Part shown: positions 2,595 to 61,831 of the stretch, one piece after another | Layout: each line of letters begins with the position of its first letter | How positions within the stretch are numbered: the stretch's first letter is position 1 | Assembly (NCBI RefSeq): GCF_003334385.1 | Contig: NZ_QOWN01000013.1 | Strand: one strand, 5' to 3' | Length of the DNA stretch: 64,000 nt | Source: Escherichia coli | GTDB lineage: Bacteria; Pseudomonadota; Gammaproteobacteria; Enterobacterales; Enterobacteriaceae | The notes under the pieces: generated by a model | The model's input: only the letters and a program-made list of their open reading frames with translations | What the model was told of the DNA's origin: nothing | The model's database searches: none | Made by a program: the position numbers and the translations under genes

Positions 2595-3338
2595 ATGTCT
2601 ATCACGGCGCAGTCCGTATACCGTGACACCGGAAATTTCTTCCGTAATCAATTTATGACCATTCTGTTGGTATCGTTGCTATGTGCGTTTATCACAGTGG
2701 TGTTAGGGCATGTTTTCTCACCCAGTGATGCACAGCTTGCGCAGCTCAATGACGGCGTGCCCGTTAGCGGCAGTAGTGGGTTGTTCGACCTGGTTCAGAA
2801 TATGTCACCGGAACAGCAACAAATTTTGCTGCAGGCTTCAGCGGCGTCCACTTTTTCAGGATTAATCGGTAACGCCATTCTCGCCGGAGGCGTAATATTA
2901 ATTATCCAGCTGGTGTCTGCGGGTCAGAGAGTCAGTGCGCTGCGAGCTATTGGTGCCAGTGCGCCGATATTGCCAAAGTTATTTATTCTGATTTTTCTGA
3001 CTACCCTTTTAGTACAGATTGGCATCATGCTGGTGGTCGTTCCGGGAATTATCATGGCCATTTTACTGGCCCTGGCACCGGTGATGTTGGTACAGGACAA
3101 AATGGGCGTTTTTGCCTCGATGCGTAGCAGTATGCGGCTGACTTGGGCGAATATGCGTCTGGTGGCACCCGCAGTACTGAGCTGGTTGCTGGCAAAAACA
3201 CTGTTGCTGCTTTTTGCCTCTTCTTTTGCCGCATTAACCCCGGAAATTGGTGCCGTACTGGCGAACACCTTGAGCAACCTGATTTCAGCCATATTGCTCA
3301 TCTATCTGTTCCGCCTGTATATGTTGATTCGCCAATAA
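2595..3338 (+). CDS. yciC: UPF0259 inner membrane protein YciC
   Basis: 247-aa multi-TM ORF in conserved K-12 synteny. Confidence 0.9.
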
Positions 3339-3367
3339 CCTTAAGCATTTGATTACGGAATCGTAAA

Positions 3368-3907
3368 ATGAAGCAGTTTCTTGATTTTTTACCGCTGGTT
3401 GTCTTTTTCGCGTTTTACAAGATTTATGACATCTATGCGGCTACTGCGGCGCTGATCGTCGCCACGGCGATTGTGCTTATCTATAGCTGGGTTCGCTTTC
3501 GTAAGGTTGAGAAGATGGCCCTGATCACTTTTGTTCTGGTGGTCGTCTTCGGTGGCTTGACGCTGTTCTTCCACAATGATGAGTTTATTAAATGGAAGGT
3601 TACAGTCATTTATGCTCTATTTGCGGGAGCCCTGTTAGTCAGCCAATGGGTGATGAAAAAGCCGCTAATTCAGCGGATGCTGGGTAAAGAACTCACGCTG
3701 CCGCAACCGGTATGGTCGAAGCTGAATCTGGCCTGGGCTGTTTTCTTTATCCTTTGCGGTCTGGCAAACATCTACATCGCATTCTGGCTGCCGCAAAATA
3801 TTTGGGTCAACTTTAAAGTCTTTGGCCTGACCGCCCTTACCTTAATCTTCACATTGTTAAGCGGTATCTATATCTACCGCCACATGCCGCAGGAAGATAA
3901 ATCCTAA
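3368..3907 (+). CDS. yciB: Inner membrane protein YciB (intracellular septation protein A family)
   Basis: 179-aa membrane ORF, synteny. Confidence 0.9.
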
Positions 3908-4011
3908 CCAGACTGCCAGTCCTTCGGGGCTGGCGCTGTATCTCCTCTGTTCTCCTCAGGAAAATCATAGTAGCATCGCGCCTGTGATTTTCCTTTTAAG
4001 TCGGTTTTACC

Positions 4012-4410
4012 ATGTCTACAACACATAACGTCCCTCAGGGCGATCTTGTTTTACGTACTTTAGCCATGCCCGCCGATACCAATGCCAATGGTGACATCTT
4101 TGGTGGTTGGTTAATGTCACAAATGGATATTGGCGGCGCTATTCTGGCAAAAGAAATTGCCCACGGTCGCGTAGTGACTGTGCGGGTTGAAGGAATGACT
4201 TTCTTACGGCCGGTTGCGGTCGGCGATGTGGTGTGCTGCTATGCACGCTGTGTCCAGAAAGGGACGACATCGGTCAGCATTAATATTGAAGTGTGGGTGA
4301 AAAAAGTAGCGTCTGAACCAATTGGGCAACGCTATAAAGCGACAGAAGCATTATTTAAGTATGTCGCGGTTGATCCTGAAGGAAAACCTCGCGCCTTACC
4401 TGTTGAGTAA
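4012..4410 (+). CDS. yciA: Acyl-CoA thioesterase YciA
   Basis: 132-aa hotdog-fold thioesterase ORF, synteny. Confidence 0.92.
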   Translation: MSTTHNVPQGDLVLRTLAMPADTNANGDIFGGWLMSQMDIGGAILAKEIAHGRVVTVRVEGMTFLRPVAVGDVVCCYARCVQKGTTSVSINIEVWVKKVASEPIGQRYKATEALFKYVAVDPEGKPRALPVE

Positions 4411-4416
4411 TAGTCA

Positions 4417-4443
4417 AAAGCCTCCGGTCGGAGGCTTTTGACT
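4417..4443. terminator. Bidirectional rho-independent terminator between yciA and tonB
   Basis: Perfect inverted repeat AAAAGCCTCCG-gtcg-CGGAGGCTTTT flanked by A/T runs on both sides. Confidence 0.65.
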
Positions 4444-4449
4444 TTCTGC

Positions 4450-5169
4450 TTACTGAATTTCGGTGGTGCCGTTAATTTTAAACAGGATATTCACCACAAT
4501 CCCACTGCCTGGCTTACCCGGCTCATAACGCCATCTGCGCATCGCATTTTTCACCTCACGCTCAAACATGTTCGCAGGCTTGGCTGAGAGGATTTGTACG
4601 TTATCCACGCGACCATCCGGCGTAACGTCAAATTTAACTTTAACCTGCCCTTCAATGCGCAATGCCTGTGCTCGTGCCGGATACTGCGGCTGATTATGGC
4701 TTAATGCGCGTGGTCCTGAAGCCACACTGGTAACCGGCTTGCTGGTTGCAGCCGTTGCTGTACTTGATGTCAGGCGTGCCGGTGCCGTATTTTCAAACGG
4801 TGATGCCGGACGCGACTCTACGGGTTTGACATCGCGTTTTGGCTGCTCCTGTACCTTTTTCACCGGCTTCGGTTTTGGCTTAGGTTTCGGCTTCGGCTTT
4901 TCAATGACCACCGGTGCTTCTTTTGGCGGTTCGGGGATCGGCTCAGGTTCCGGTTCTGGCTCTACCACCGGCTCCGGTGGCGGCTGAACGGCTTGTGGCG
5001 GTTCGAGATCAGCAGGCGTAACCATCGTGACAGAAATCGGCTGCGCAGGCGCAGGTAGTTCAATAACCTGATGTACCGAGGTATAGAGCAGACCCGCCAC
5101 AACAGCACCATGAATGCAGACCGAAAGTAACGTCGGCCAGGGGAAGCGGCGAGGTAAATCAAGGGTCAT
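4450..5169 (-). CDS. tonB: TonB energy transducer
   Basis: Start set at MTLDLPRRFPWPTLL (239 aa); the ORF track extends 17 aa further upstream. Contains the characteristic (EP)n and (KP)n proline-rich repeats. Confidence 0.95.
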   Translation of the reverse strand: MTLDLPRRFPWPTLLSVCIHGAVVAGLLYTSVHQVIELPAPAQPISVTMVTPADLEPPQAVQPPPEPVVEPEPEPEPIPEPPKEAPVVIEKPKPKPKPKPKPVKKVQEQPKRDVKPVESRPASPFENTAPARLTSSTATAATSKPVTSVASGPRALSHNQPQYPARAQALRIEGQVKVKFDVTPDGRVDNVQILSAKPANMFEREVKNAMRRWRYEPGKPGSGIVVNILFKINGTTEIQ

Positions 5170-5392
5170 TGAAGTCATAATCATTTCAGTAGAAAAACCA
5201 GGTCTCGATTTTAAATGCAAATAGCAATCATATTCAATAAGGCAAGACGATCAGGATCAGTGAAAATGTCATTTTTGGCGTAATTACCCTTACTTTATGC
5301 ATGGCCTTAACAAAGACATCATCTTTCCGTTGCAGATCTTCGCCCTTTCAAATAACGTACTTTACAACTTTCCCGAACAAGGAGTTGTGCCC

Positions 5393-5689
5393 GTGTTGTA
5401 TGTTATTTACGCTCAAGACAAAGCTGATAGCCTCGAAAAACGCCTTTCCGTTCGTCCGGCACATTTAGCACGTTTACAGTTACTGCATGATGAAGGTCGT
5501 TTGTTGACAGCTGGTCCAATGCCAGCGGTAGACAGTAACGATCCAGGGGCTGCGGGATTTACTGGCTCAACCGTTATTGCTGAATTTGAATCGCTGGAAG
5601 CAGCTCAGGCCTGGGCCGATGCTGACCCGTACGTAGCGGCAGGAGTCTATGAACACGTTTCAGTGAAACCATTTAAGAAAGTGTTCTGA
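5393..5689 (+). CDS. yciI: YciI-like protein (Dabb-fold)
   Basis: 98-aa product from a GTG start at 5393 preceded by AAGGAG; the ORF track's 130-aa version starts upstream. A terminator hairpin follows (CACGGTTtttgcAACCGTG). Confidence 0.85.
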
Positions 5690-57005: not shown

Positions 57006-58097
57006 ATGGGATTCAAATGCGGTATCGTCGGTTTGCCCAACGTCGGGAAATCTACCCTGTTCAACGCGCTGACCAAAGCCGGTATTGAAGCGGCCAACTT
57101 TCCATTCTGCACCATTGAGCCGAACACAGGCGTCGTACCAATGCCTGATCCTCGCCTGGATCAACTGGCTGAAATCGTAAAACCGCAGCGTACGCTTCCC
57201 ACGACCATGGAATTTGTCGATATCGCCGGTCTGGTAAAAGGCGCATCGAAAGGCGAAGGTCTGGGTAACCAGTTCCTGACCAACATCCGTGAAACCGAAG
57301 CGATCGGTCACGTTGTTCGCTGCTTTGAAAATGACAACATCATTCACGTTTCCGGCAAAGTTAACCCGGCTGACGATATTGAAGTTATCAACACCGAACT
57401 GGCGCTGGCAGACCTCGACACCTGCGAACGTGCGATTCATCGCGTACAGAAGAAAGCCAAAGGTGGCGATAAAGACGCGAAAGCTGAGCTGGCGGTCCTG
57501 GAAAAATGCCTGCCCCAGTTGGAAAATGCAGGTATGCTGCGCGCGCTGGATTTAAGCGCTGAAGAGAAAGCGGCTATTCGTTACCTGAGCTTCCTGACGC
57601 TGAAACCAACAATGTACATCGCCAACGTCAACGAAGACGGTTTTGAAAACAACCCATATCTTGACCAGGTGCGTGAAATCGCGGCGAAAGAAGGTTCTGT
57701 TGTGGTTCCGGTTTGTGCTGCTGTTGAAGCAGACATTGCCGAACTGGACGACGAAGAACGTGACGAGTTTATGCAGGAGCTTGGGCTGGAAGAGCCGGGC
57801 CTGAACCGTGTGATCCGTGCCGGTTATAAACTGCTGAACCTGCAAACTTACTTCACCGCTGGGGTGAAAGAAGTGCGTGCATGGACCATTCCGGTTGGAG
57901 CAACCGCGCCGCAGGCAGCGGGCAAAATCCATACTGATTTTGAAAAAGGCTTTATCCGTGCACAAACCATCTCGTTTGAAGATTTCATCACTTACAAAGG
58001 TGAACAAGGCGCGAAAGAAGCAGGCAAAATGCGTGCAGAAGGTAAAGATTACATCGTGAAAGATGGCGATGTGATGAACTTCCTTTTCAACGTCTAA
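57006..58097 (+). CDS. ychF: Ribosome-binding ATPase YchF
   Basis: 363 aa, Obg-family P-loop (GLPNVGKST) and C-terminal TGS domain. Confidence 0.96.
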
Positions 58098-58154
58098 TTA
58101 ATTTATTGTCTCATGAGGTTTCGCTAAATCTCATGAAGAGCGCAAAAGTATATA

Positions 58155-58180
58155 AAATCCACGCAATTGCGTGGATTTTT
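58155..58180 (+). terminator. ychF rho-independent terminator
   Basis: AAAATCCACGCaattGCGTGGATTTTT. Confidence 0.7.
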
Positions 58181-58865
58181 CATTTCACCGAGTCCTAATC
58201 ATTCTTGTAACATCCTACACTTTTGTGCTTATTGCCTATAGTGAACCACGAGAATAATTAAAGACATAAGTGTTCAGATGACGGATATCTCATTAGCAGT
58301 GATATAACGTAAGTTTTTGTATCACTACACATCAGCCCCCTTCACAGCTGATCAAAATTGATCACGCTCCAATATGCTGGCAAGATGAAAATGATAACCA
58401 GTAGCACAATAACAACGATAGGCCAGAAAACCCATTGACCAAAAATGAATATCGATGTTTTTTGCTTTTTCTTATTAGTAATGCAAAAATGGCGCATATT
58501 GTTTTTGTTATGCAGATACATCAAGCGAAATTCCCATAACTAATTAGGATTATTACAAAAAATCTTCACCAAATTTTTTAACCGCTGTTTGTTGTAATAT
58601 TTTTGCCATATTTATAGTAACGAATTGGAATAAGTAACGACAACTTAGGGAATAACTCGATATAAACTCACCTTTGTAAGGGGGATGTTAAATATATATT
58701 AATTCCTGTGTTCCTGATTTTGCCCGGTAATAGAGAATTATTCTCTGAGAAGCTCATCATGATTGCACCATACAAATATCATGATGATAAGAGGATATTA
58801 TTCATTGATTTAAACAAAATGACAAAATCCATAGACCCATAGTCTGGGTACTATATAGGAGTGGT

Positions 58866-61732
58866 ATGGGCATCAAACAACACAATGGGAATACCAAAGC
58901 AGATCGTCTCGCTGAATTAAAAATCCGTTCGCCCTCAATTCAACTGATAAAATTTGGCGCTATTGGTTTGAATGCAATTATCTTTTCCCCCCTGCTGATA
59001 GCTGCTGATACAGGAAGTCAATATGGCACCAATATTACTATTAATGATGGTGACAGAATTACAGGAGATACCGCCGATCCATCAGGAAACCTCTATGGTG
59101 TAATGACCCCAGCAGGAAACACGCCTGGCAATATCAACCTGGGTAATGATGTCACCGTCAATGTCAACGACGCCTCTGGATATGCAAAAGGAATCATTAT
59201 TCAGGGCAAAAACAGCTCCCTGACAGCTAACCGACTCACAGTAGATGTTGTTGGTCAAACCTCTGCCATCGGCATTAACTTAATTGGTGACTATACCCAT
59301 GCTGACTTAGGCACAGGCAGCACCATTAAGAGTAACGATGACGGCATCATTATTGGGCATAGCTCAACACTAACAGCCACTCAATTCACCATTGAAAACT
59401 CGAACGGTATAGGCCTAACCATCAATGACTATGGCACCAGTGTCGATCTTGGAAGCGGAAGTAAAATCACGACCGATGGAAGTACAGGTGTTTATATCGG
59501 TGGTCTCAACGGCAATAACGCCAATGGTGCTGCGCGTTTTACGGCTACAGACCTGACAATCGATGTTCAGGGCTACAGCGCCATGGGGATAAACGTACAG
59601 AAAAACTCTGTTGTCGATCTCGGAACAAACAGTACCATTAAAACCAATGGCGATAATGCTCACGGCCTCTGGAGCTTTGGCCAGGTTAGCGCGAATGCAC
59701 TCACTGTTGATGTAACTGGAGCCGCGGCCAATGGCGTCGAAGTTCGTGGTGGTACAACCACTATCGGTGCAGATAGCCATATTTCTTCCGCGCAGGGCGG
59801 TGGCCTCGTCACCAGTGGTTCAGACGCGATAATCAATTTTACTGGCACGGCAGCGCAACGAAACAGCATCTTTTCCGGCGGTTCTTATGGTGCCTCGGCC
59901 CAGACGGCAACGGCTGTTGTCAACATGCAAAATACCGATATTACAGTTGATCGTAATGGCAGTCTGGCGCTGGGTTTGTGGGCTCTCAGCGGCGGTAGAA
60001 TAACCGGAGACAGTTTGGCTATCACCGGCGCGGCAGGAGCCAGGGGAATTTATGCCATGACCAACAGCCAGATCGACCTCACGAGCGATCTGGTCATTGA
60101 TATGAGTACACCCGACCAGATGGCCATCGCAACGCAACATGACGATGGTTATGCCGCCAGCCGCATCAACGCCTCGGGTCGTATGCTTATCAACGGTAGC
60201 GTTCTTTCCAAAGGTGGGCTAATCAATCTGGATATGCACCCTGGGTCGGTTTGGACAGGTTCCTCCCTCAGCGATAATGTCAATGGCGGAAAACTGGACG
60301 TTGCAATGAATAACAGCGTCTGGAACGTAACAAGTAATTCTAATCTCGACACGCTGGCGCTGAGCCATTCAACTGTCGATTTTGCCAGCCACGGGTCAAC
60401 TGCCGGCACATTTGCCACATTAAACGTAGAGAACCTGAGCGGTAACAGTACCTTTATTATGCGTGCTGATGTTGTTGGCGAGGGTAATGGCGTTAATAAT
60501 AAAGGGGATTTATTGAATATCAGCGGGAGTAGTGCTGGTAATCACGTATTGGCTATCCGCAACCAGGGCAGCGAGGCCACAACGGGAAATGAAGTTCTGA
60601 CAGTGGTAAAAACCACTGACGGCGCGGCCTCGTTCAGCGCGTCTTCTCAGGTTGAGTTGGGGGGATATCTGTACGATGTGCGTAAAAATGGCACTAACTG
60701 GGAGCTTTACGCTTCCGGGACAGTTCCGGAACCGACTCCTAATCCTGAACCCACACCAGCTCCCGCTCAGCCTCCCATAGTCAACCCCGATCCTACGCCT
60801 GAACCCGCTCCCACGCCTAAACCCACCACGACCGCAGATGCTGGCGGCAATTATCTCAATGTCGGTTACTTATTGAACTATGTTGAAAACCGTACGCTGA
60901 TGCAACGGATGGGTGACCTGCGAAATCAGAGTAAAGACGGTAATATCTGGTTGCGCAGTTATGGGGGAAGCCTGGACTCCTTTGCCAGTGGCAAACTGAG
61001 CGGCTTTGACATGGGTTACAGCGGTATCCAGTTTGGTGGGGATAAACGTCTCTCTGATGTAATGCCGTTGTATGTCGGTCTGTATATTGGCTCAACACAT
61101 GCATCGCCGGACTATAGCGGAGGCGACGGTACCGCACGTTCAGACTACATGGGAATGTACGCCAGTTACATGGCACAAAACGGTTTTTACAGCGATCTCG
61201 TTATAAAAGCATTGCGCCAGAAAAATAGTTTCCACGTACTGGACAGTCAGAACAACGGCGTTAACGCCAACAGCACTGCGAATGGAATGAGCATCTCCCT
61301 GGAAGCCGGGCAGAGGTTCAACCTGTCCCCTACTGGTTATGGGTTCTATATAGAGCCGCAAACCCAGCTTACATACAGCCACCAGAATGAGATGACTATG
61401 AAGGCGAGTAATGGCCTCAATATACATCTGAATCACTACGAATCGCTGCTGGGGCGTGCCAGCATGATACTGGGGTATGACATCACCGCAGCAACAGCCA
61501 GCTGAATGTCTATGTGAAGACTGGCGCTATCCGCGAGTTTTCAGGGGATACCGAATATCTGTTGAACAACTCCCGGGAGAAGTACAGTTTCAAAGGTAAT
61601 GGCTGGAATAACGGCGTGGGAGTCAGTGCACAGTATAACAAACAGCACACATTCTATCTCGAAGCGGATTACACGCAGGGTAACCTCTTTGATCAGAAGC
61701 AAGTCAACGGAGGATATCGCTTCAGCTTTTAA
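58866..61732 (+). pseudogene. ycgV: Autotransporter adhesin YcgV, reading frame broken near 61480-61505
   Basis: The passenger and most of the beta-domain lie in one frame (58866-61505, 879 aa, ending ...DITAATAS*). The last ~76 residues including the terminal aromatic ...GGYRFSF lie in the +2 frame (61481-61732). One extra base near 61498-61503 would restore a ~955-aa protein. Confidence 0.75.
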
Positions 61733-61831
61733 GTGCGGGATAGACAAGCCCTTAAACGATGCTGAAAATTGTTAGCGTGCGCCGGAATGAAATACAGATC
61801 ACTCTGATGTATCAGAAATCGTTTCTGTCTT

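What the first reader, a model, noticed from the sequence alone, without database searches (positions are those of the whole stretch)
58098..58865. AT-rich ychF-ycgV intergenic region with a candidate 50-60-aa single-TM small protein
This ~770-bp AT-rich region is the kind of sequence H-NS usually silences and would contain the ycgV promoter. The minus-strand ORF 58342-58524 encodes a basic N-terminus followed by one strongly hydrophobic helix (WVFWPIVVIVLLVIIFILPAYW), a typical small membrane protein architecture. It lacks a convincing RBS and is not known to me as an annotated gene, so it is a weak candidate.
Basis: inference. Interest (0 to 1): 0.25.

Follow-up and report, generated by a model that had tools for sequence, protein, structure and literature searches.

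The report
Unconserved orphan ORF in silenced spacer
The AT-rich spacer between ychF and ycgV in E. coli is an already described H-NS-bound "promoter island", and the 59-codon membrane-like reading frame inside it is an E. coli-only orphan that evolves like non-coding DNA, so it is probably not a working gene.

Summary
The spacer 58098-58865 has 34% G+C. It starts with the ychF bidirectional terminator (58154-58179). On the minus strand it holds an ORF (ATG 58521 to stop 58342, 59 codons) with a basic N-terminus and one very hydrophobic helix.

ORF length is what chance gives: at least 60 codons in 48% of shuffles. The hydrophobic, T-at-codon-position-2 stretch is not (0.3% or fewer of shuffles).

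The evidence does not support a gene under selection:
- No relative exists outside E. coli/Shigella in any library searched.
- It is absent from RefSeq annotation, including K-12.
- Across 17 haplotypes there are 5 synonymous and 20 non-synonymous changes (omega about 1). ychF next door shows 16:0.
- Substitution density matches the flanking spacer.
- Length is polymorphic among 5,426 complete genomes. About 1,990 have a 75-bp deletion (59 codons, as here). At least 1,621 have a stop at codon 68. At most 435 could have 84 codons. About 1,300 lack it.

Published work lists this spacer among 78 H-NS-bound "promoter islands".

Verdict: an ordinary silenced regulatory spacer with a non-conserved orphan ORF, either a decaying relic or a proto-gene. 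I could not reach any translation data.

The parts
58098..58865 (.). ychF-ycgV intergenic spacer, 768 bp, 33.7% G+C
   Evidence: Present with at least 80% coverage in 4,096 of 5,426 complete E. coli genomes. Replaced by an integrase/IS island in an ST131-type strain.
58154..58179 (.). Perfect 13+13 palindrome flanked by A- and T-runs: intrinsic terminator of ychF, usable in both directions
   Evidence: Terminator scan and inverted repeat I3. Folds at -15.5 kcal/mol (z -4.2) on the + strand and -17.5 (z -3.9) on the - strand. The sub-threshold Rfam Leu_leader hits are this hairpin.
58342..58524 (-). Candidate ORF: TTG 58524, ATG 58521, internal ATG (Met9) 58497, stop TGA 58344-58342. 59 aa from the ATG: MYLHNKNNMRHFCITNKKKQKTSIFIFGQWVFWPIVVIVLLVIIFILPAYWSVINFDQL
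   Evidence: The exact 59-aa sequence is in public protein collections on more than 1,000 contigs as hypothetical/membrane protein. No family match. Omega about 1.
58378..58443 (-). Codons 27-48, the hydrophobic (TM-like) stretch, with T at codon position 2 in 73% of codons
   Evidence: only 0.4% of shuffles of this stretch reach its hydrophobicity in any frame.
58372..58381 (.). Junction of a 75-bp deletion relative to the long allele. The deletion lies between two CTGGC direct repeats and is in frame (25 codons). It removes the stop at codon 68 that most long alleles carry.
   Evidence: Alignments. Short allele in about 1,990 genomes. Long allele in about 2,115.
58407..58707 (.). 'Promoter island' of Panyukov and Ozoline 2013 (1255333_301 in U00096.2), H-NS-bound in all ChIP data sets compared. 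It covers the ORF's first ~38 codons and 186 nt upstream.
   Evidence: PMC3661553 Table 1. The conversion to window coordinates uses a U00096.2-to-.3 offset of about +778 taken from my own knowledge. It is consistent with the gene coordinates and accurate to within a few bases.
58740..58865 (+). Fragment used as the 'ycgV promoter' in a YbdO gel-shift assay
   Evidence: Primers from PMC11681634 mapped to the window. The authors did not map a transcription start.
58797..58825 (-). The only sigma-70 consensus match in the spacer (TTGTCA-17-AATAAT, 10/12), pointing toward the ORF about 275 nt upstream of its ATG
   Evidence: 1 site found against 4.3 +/- 2.3 in shuffles. A consensus match only, not evidence of function.
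58866..61733 (+). ycgV autotransporter adhesin gene. In this strain it is frameshifted near 61492 (879 codons instead of 955).

Best explanation
The region is the AT-rich regulatory spacer that came with the strain-variable autotransporter gene ycgV. At its left end a palindromic intrinsic terminator stops ychF transcription, and it would also stop any leftward transcript. The rest is an H-NS-bound 'promoter island' that keeps ycgV nearly silent. The ycgV promoter and a YbdO-binding fragment lie in the last ~125 bp. These regulatory steps come from the literature, not from tests here. The minus-strand 59-codon ORF is real as sequence, but it is not a gene held by selection. It is confined to E. 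coli/Shigella and accumulates amino-acid changes at the neutral rate. Its length varies among strains (59, 67 or 84 codons, plus frameshifts). The strongly periodic hydrophobic stretch suggests it is more than a random frame: either the decaying relic of a short membrane-protein gene that arrived with the island, or a lineage-specific proto-gene. In K-12-like strains the present 59-codon frame is an accident of a 75-bp deletion between CTGGC repeats. That deletion happened to be in frame and removed a stop codon. This last step is inferred.
For: AT-richness. Terminator. H-NS binding and promoter island: PMC3661553. YbdO binding: PMC11681634. Orphan status: phmmer against 1.84 billion representatives found only alleles of this locus plus low-complexity noise. 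The word-indexed search of 5.8 billion proteins found only E. coli/Shigella alleles. The scan of GTDB species representatives found only two stray E. coli-like contigs. Plasmid hits were all E. coli and there were no phage hits. There was no Pfam, NCBIfam, PHROG or PADLOC match. Not annotated in NC_000913.3 or PGAP genomes. Neutral evolution: 5 synonymous and 20 non-synonymous minimal changes across 17 haplotypes, with a synonymous-site fraction of 0.20. Omega of 0.3 or less is rejected at p = 0.008 and 0.2 or less at p = 0.0003. The ychF control gave 16:0. Substitution density is 0.089 per site in the ORF, against 0.11-0.16 in the adjacent spacer and 0.053 in ychF. Length polymorphism: including a 1-bp deletion inside the helix in strain C4. 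ORF length is within chance.
Against: The hydrophobic helix with T at codon position 2 is far beyond what shuffling gives, so the frame looks like coding sequence. The first 48 codons (basic N-terminus plus helix) stay open in 17 of the 18 haplotypes read, and most replacements in the helix are V/I/L exchanges. For a single-pass membrane peptide, only hydrophobicity may be selected. ycgV itself, an accepted gene, shows 5:14 in its first 300 nt, so omega near 1 does not prove non-function at this locus. A weak SD-like GGGA precedes the ATG. No expression data could be consulted.
Confidence: 0.7

Rival explanations
1. It is a genuine small inner-membrane protein (N-terminus in the cytoplasm, one transmembrane helix). 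It would be made only when H-NS silencing is lifted. The first ~48 residues would be the functional unit and the C-terminal tail would be free to vary among strains.
For: Basic N-terminus plus a helix with Kyte-Doolittle mean 3.06 and strong codon periodicity. The first 48 codons are open in 17 of 18 haplotypes, and helix replacements are mostly conservative. Weak SD-like GGGA. A bidirectional terminator lies downstream. Gene callers predict it on more than 1,000 contigs.
Against: No homologue outside E. coli. In codons 1-48 there are 11 non-synonymous and 2 synonymous changes, and omega is about 1 overall. Codon 34 inside the helix has four alleles: P, L, H and S. One complete genome has a frameshift in the helix. 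An extra hydrophobic segment is present or absent among alleles, which would change topology. It is not among the validated small proteins in the 2026 RefSeq K-12 record. Keeping 48 codons open over about 13 substitutions is expected by chance roughly half the time (inference).
Confidence: 0.18
2. It is a pure chance ORF. T-rich, AT-rich silenced DNA happens to read as a hydrophobic peptide, and it was never a gene.
For: ORFs this long are expected in this spacer (48% of shuffles at 60 or more codons; 11% at 84 or more in the long allele). Evolution is neutral and truncations are common. From my own knowledge, thymine-rich intergenic DNA is known to yield TM-like ORFs (Vakirlis et al. 2020, not checked here).
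Against: Shuffles that keep the local composition almost never reproduce the hydrophobic run (0.06% or fewer for the ORF, 0.4% for the 66-nt stretch). None of the other 205 ORFs of 50-100 codons in the window has one.
Confidence: 0.3
3. It is the toxin of a type I toxin-antitoxin pair: a small hydrophobic membrane-damaging peptide kept off by an antisense RNA.
For: A small hydrophobic peptide with a poor RBS in horizontally acquired DNA.
Against: No match to any toxin family in Pfam or NCBIfam. No antitoxin RNA family and no other RNA above threshold in Rfam. No repeats or long structured leader near the start; the fold z-score is +0.8. Nonsense and deletion alleles are common, with no sign of a paired partner.
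Confidence: 0.03

Closest known systems
Promoter islands / H-NS-silenced xenogeneic spacers of E. coli (Panyukov and Ozoline 2013, PMC3661553)
   Same: This very spacer is entry 1255333_301 of their list. It is AT-rich, upstream of a strain-variable surface-protein gene, and H-NS-bound in all ChIP sets compared.
   Different: Nothing differs for the spacer itself. Their table does not mention an ORF inside the island.
Validated small single-TM proteins of E. coli K-12 (Hemm/Storz class, e.g. YohP, AcrZ; from my own knowledge)
   Same: 50-60 residues, a charged N-terminus and one transmembrane helix.
   Different: Those were shown to be translated, and many are conserved across enterobacteria. 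This ORF has no relative outside E. coli, omega about 1 and truncated alleles, and no expression evidence was available.
De novo TM-encoding proto-genes from thymine-rich intergenic DNA (Vakirlis et al. 2020, yeast; from my own knowledge, not checked here)
   Same: A species-restricted ORF in T-rich non-coding DNA that encodes a TM-like helix and evolves neutrally.
   Different: The periodicity here is stronger than local composition explains. No evidence of expression or benefit is available.
Type I toxins (Hok, Ldr, Ibs, TisB, ShoB)
   Same: A small hydrophobic peptide.
   Different: No sequence family match, no antisense RNA and no conserved leader structure.

Membership tests
Functional small membrane protein gene | Short ORF encoding a predicted transmembrane helix | tested here: met
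   19-aa Kyte-Doolittle mean of 3.06, rare in shuffles.
Functional small membrane protein gene | Reading frame conserved and under purifying selection in related genomes | tested here: not met
   No relatives outside E. coli. 5 synonymous to 20 non-synonymous changes, omega about 1. Stop at codon 68 in at least 1,621 genomes, 75-bp deletion in about 1,990, plus frameshift alleles.
Functional small membrane protein gene | Ribosome-binding site at proper spacing | tested here: inconclusive
   GGGA 10 nt upstream, -4.2 kcal/mol. This is like pth and ychF, but 10% of all spacer positions match it.
Functional small membrane protein gene | Evidence of translation (initiation-site ribosome profiling, epitope tag, mass spectrometry) | not testable with these tools
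   The Stringer supplement is cut off before 1.25 Mb. Weaver and Meydan are not held, or have no supplements. INRI-seq covers annotated genes only. The ORF is absent from the 2026 RefSeq K-12 record.
Type I toxin-antitoxin | Membership of a known toxin family | tested here: not met
   No significant Pfam or NCBIfam hit.
Type I toxin-antitoxin | Cognate antisense RNA | tested here: not met
   Rfam gives only sub-threshold chance or terminator hits. This covers described families only.
H-NS-silenced promoter island | AT-rich relative to the genome and next to a variably present (horizontally acquired) gene | tested here: met
   34% G+C against about 50%. The ORF-bearing part of the spacer is found in 4,118 of 5,426 genomes and is replaced by an integrase island in an ST131-type strain.
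H-NS-silenced promoter island | H-NS occupancy and an excess of promoter-like sites | not testable with these tools
   Taken from PMC3661553 Table 1. The simple sigma-70 scan here found 1 site against 4.3 expected, so the excess rests on that paper's own predictor.
Intrinsic (bidirectional) terminator | G+C-rich hairpin followed by a T-run, on both strands | tested here: met

The most novel reading that the evidence does not exclude
The ORF is a young, E. coli-specific membrane micro-protein gene embedded in an H-NS-silenced promoter island. It would be expressed only when silencing is lifted and would exist in the population as 59-, 67- and 84-residue alleles. That would make it a natural snapshot of gene birth, or of gene death, in silenced AT-rich DNA.
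Probability: 0.15. Interest if true: 0.4.

Novelty: already known. Interest (0 to 1): 0.12.

Why it matters
It matters little. The spacer's nature (AT-rich, H-NS-bound, promoter island upstream of a cryptic adhesin gene) is published. The ORF is already in public databases as an automatic 'hypothetical/membrane protein' call. The useful outcome is negative: a tempting small-membrane-protein candidate in K-12 fails the conservation test, so it should not be added to annotation without direct translation evidence. If it did prove to be translated, its three natural length alleles would make a convenient case study of a proto-gene or a dying gene.

Tried and rejected
- **Remote homology.** Searches used were phmmer against 1.84 billion representatives, the word-indexed 5.8 billion set, Pfam, NCBIfam, PHROGs, PADLOC, tblastn on plasmids and phages, and GTDB species representatives. 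Only alleles of the same locus turned up.
- **An outgroup within the E. coli collection.** A distant-mode search found nothing below about 93.5% identity, so the ancestral state (stop or no stop, long or short) could not be polarised.
- **Ribosome-profiling and TSS tables.** Stringer 2021 is truncated. Weaver 2019 has no supplements as a preprint and the mBio version is not held. Meydan 2019 is not held. The Cappable-seq, smORFer and 'Cryptic microproteome' supplements have no entry. INRI-seq covers annotated genes only. A full-text search for the peptide and its coordinates gave only noise.
- **Rfam.** Only sub-threshold hits, explained by the terminator hairpin.
- **Selection on hydrophobicity.** No changes at the 16 T2 positions against 5 at positions 1 and 3 of the same codons gives p about 0.13, which is not significant. 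A widespread allele (P0067) does carry V42A.
- **Type I toxin idea.** Rejected for lack of any family match, antisense RNA or leader structure.

Full report
**Context.** The window is E. coli, one base different from K-12 MG1655 in this spacer, with the gene order dauA-ychH-pth-ychF-spacer-ycgV-dhaR. K-12 runs the other way: the NC_000913.3 coordinate equals 1314818 minus the window coordinate. The spacer runs from 58098 to 58865, after the ychF stop at 58097 and before the ycgV ATG at 58866.

**Check of the observation.** The spacer is 768 bp and 33.7% G+C. In 300-nt windows G+C is 30-38%, against about 50% in the neighbouring genes. It has a TTG at 58524, an ATG one codon later at 58521, a second ATG (Met9) at 58497 and a TGA ending at 58342. 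From the ATG it encodes MYLHNKNNMRHFCITNKKKQKTSIFIFGQWVFWPIVVIVLLVIIFILPAYWSVINFDQL.

Length alone is not evidence. 48% of dinucleotide-preserving shuffles of the spacer contain an ORF of at least 60 codons. For the long allele, 37% reach 67 codons and 11% reach 84.

The helix is a different matter. Its 19-residue Kyte-Doolittle mean is 3.06. An ORF of at least 50 codons with a window of at least 2.8 occurs in 0.3% of spacer shuffles. The observed value is reached in 0.06% or fewer of shuffles of the ORF itself. Among the 206 ORFs of 50-100 codons in the 64-kb window, only this one has such a window. T sits at codon position 2 in 73% of codons 27-48, against 27% at position 1 and 41% at position 3. 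So the frame looks like coding sequence, beyond what composition explains.

The RBS is weak. A GGGA lies 10 nt before the ATG, with an anti-SD duplex of -4.2 kcal/mol. That is comparable with pth and ychF, but 10% of all positions in the spacer do as well. Met9 has no SD-like sequence at all.

**Other features of the spacer.**
- A perfect 13+13 palindrome at 58154-58179, flanked by A- and T-runs, is the ychF terminator and reads as a terminator on both strands. The sub-threshold Rfam Leu_leader hits are this hairpin.
- Published work lists the ycgV/ychF spacer as one of 78 'promoter islands'. These bind RNA polymerase but are transcriptionally suppressed. This one is scored H-NS-bound in all ChIP studies compared (PMC3661553). 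After coordinate conversion the island is about 58407-58707, covering the ORF's 5' third and its upstream region. The conversion uses an offset from my own knowledge and is good to a few bases.
- A genomic SELEX study lists an RNA polymerase binding peak in this spacer, in its section on heat-shock sigma promoters, at about window 58206 (PMC5493296).
- A 126-bp fragment at 58740-58865 was used as the ycgV promoter and shifted by YbdO (PMC11681634).
- The simple sigma-70 scan here finds one site, on the minus strand at 58825-58797. This is fewer than in shuffles.

**Whether the ORF is known or related to anything.** It is not annotated in NC_000913.3 (2026 copy), in another K-12 record, or under any of the PGAP genomes listed. 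The exact 59-aa sequence is in public collections on more than 1,000 contigs as 'hypothetical protein' or 'membrane protein', including a UniRef entry.

All searches returned only alleles of this locus from E. coli/Shigella:
- The word-indexed search of 5.8 billion proteins.
- phmmer over 1.84 billion cluster representatives, with only low-complexity noise beyond these alleles.
- Pfam, NCBIfam, PHROGs and PADLOC, with nothing significant.
- tblastn on plasmids, where all hits are E. coli records, several of them chromosome-sized.
- tblastn on phages, with no hit.
- The GTDB species-representative scan, which found two contigs filed under Actinomycetes and Streptomyces. One of them carries E. 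coli ychF next to the spacer, so they look like E. coli contamination.

Within E. coli the ORF-bearing DNA is in 4,118 of 5,426 complete genomes and never falls below about 93.5% identity. In an ST131-type strain an integrase and an IS element follow ychF instead.

**Population structure of the frame.** Alignment of 18 haplotypes shows three main states.
- The long allele has 75 extra bases (25 codons, GSHVITLFGGFICWILPFRQVLFSP), which add a second, weaker hydrophobic segment and give 84 codons.
- Most long alleles carry TAA instead of CAA at codon 68, giving 67 codons.
- The K-12 type lacks the 75 bases. The deletion lies between two CTGGC direct repeats, is in frame, and removes the codon-68 stop.

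Outside the deletion the K-12 type is nearly identical to a stop-bearing long allele (L005). So the K-12 frame most likely arose from an already truncated allele; this is an inference.

Counts in the 5,426 genomes are as follows:
- The deletion junction is in about 1,990.
- The long allele is in about 2,115.
- At least 1,621 of 2,056 scorable long alleles have the stop, and at most 435 do not. That remainder still includes stop-bearing O157 genomes with an unrelated mismatch to the probe.
- Frameshifted alleles of 77 and 81 residues occur on several long contigs.
- Strain C4 has a 1-bp deletion inside the first helix.

**Selection.** Across 17 haplotypes the candidate frame has 5 synonymous and 20 non-synonymous minimal changes, not counting a TGA-to-TAA change at the stop. 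The synonymous-site fraction is 0.20, so omega is about 1. Omega of 0.3 or less is rejected at p = 0.008, and 0.2 or less at p = 0.0003. In an earlier count on 8 haplotypes, the other five frames gave similar or higher synonymous counts.

Substitution density in the ORF is 0.089 per site. The spacer on either side shows 0.11 and 0.16, and ychF shows 0.053. The ychF control gives 16 synonymous and 0 non-synonymous changes.

There are caveats. The first 300 nt of ycgV itself give 5:14, so relaxed or diversifying evolution is general at this locus. Most changes in the helix are V/I/L exchanges. No T at position 2 changed in the 17 haplotypes, but that is not significant (p about 0.13), and a widespread allele does carry V42A. 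Codon 34, inside the helix, has four alleles: P, L, H and S.

**Interpretation.** What is shown here or taken from the literature: an AT-rich, H-NS-bound, strain-variable spacer with a terminator at one end and the ycgV promoter region at the other. Also shown: an orphan ORF whose sequence evolves neutrally and whose length is polymorphic.

What is inferred: the ORF is not maintained as a gene. Its coding-like periodicity makes a decaying relic or a lineage-specific proto-gene somewhat more attractive than a pure chance frame.

I put 0.7 on 'not a gene under selection', whether relic or chance. I put about 0.18 on a genuine conditionally expressed small membrane protein whose first 48 residues are what matters. 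I put about 0.03 on a type I toxin.

**What could not be done.** No table of translation initiation sites or transcription starts covering K-12 position 1,256,297 could be reached. Translation therefore remains untested. Because H-NS covers the region, a negative result in wild-type K-12 would not be decisive either.

**Verdict.** This is an ordinary locus of low interest.

Noticed in passing
window 61492-61505 (ycgV): Relative to K-12, this strain's ycgV has a one-base length difference near 61492 that shifts the frame. The ORF stops at 61505 (879 codons instead of 955). ycgV is also annotated as frameshifted or partial in several other genomes (PT62, O157:H7, O145, STN0717-11), so the adhesin gene is often a pseudogene.
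   Followed up: partly
window 58376/58377; long allele e.g. L005 577-651: A 75-bp insertion/deletion polymorphism flanked by CTGGC direct repeats splits E. coli roughly in half (about 1,990 short, about 2,115 long). The 75-bp segment occurs once per genome as a rule, so it does not look like a mobile repeat.
   Followed up: yes
window 58420-58422 (codon 34 of the ORF): One codon carries four alleles (CCT, CTT, CAT, TCT) among 17 haplotypes. This is far more than any other site in the spacer. It could be a mutational hot spot or recombination; it is unexplained.
   Followed up: no
L011 (NZ_CP018983.1) 3081-5625: In an ST131-type strain only the ychF terminator is kept. A tyrosine recombinase gene and ISEc24 follow, so the point just downstream of the ychF terminator acts as an island integration or replacement point.
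   Followed up: partly
L003 (JAEWQO010000123.1) and L004 (NZ_JARVKW010000136.1): Contigs filed under an Actinomycetes MAG and Streptomyces sp. DH24 (coverage 0.84) carry this E. coli spacer almost unchanged. They are likely E. coli contamination in those assemblies.
   Followed up: partly
hit H1, NZ_CP123255.1 2728132-2729672: In strain YZMc17-1 the spacer matches at 100% but is split in two by an IS1 family transposase insertion. The position within the spacer was not determined.
   Followed up: no
window 58708-58842 (+): A 44-codon GTG-started ORF lies just upstream of ycgV on the same strand and overlaps the YbdO-binding fragment. It was not examined for conservation.
   Followed up: no
window 58270-58341: All the small (1-2 bp) indels among the haplotypes cluster in the 70 bp just downstream of the ORF's stop, and substitution density there is the highest in the spacer (0.16 per site).
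   Followed up: partly
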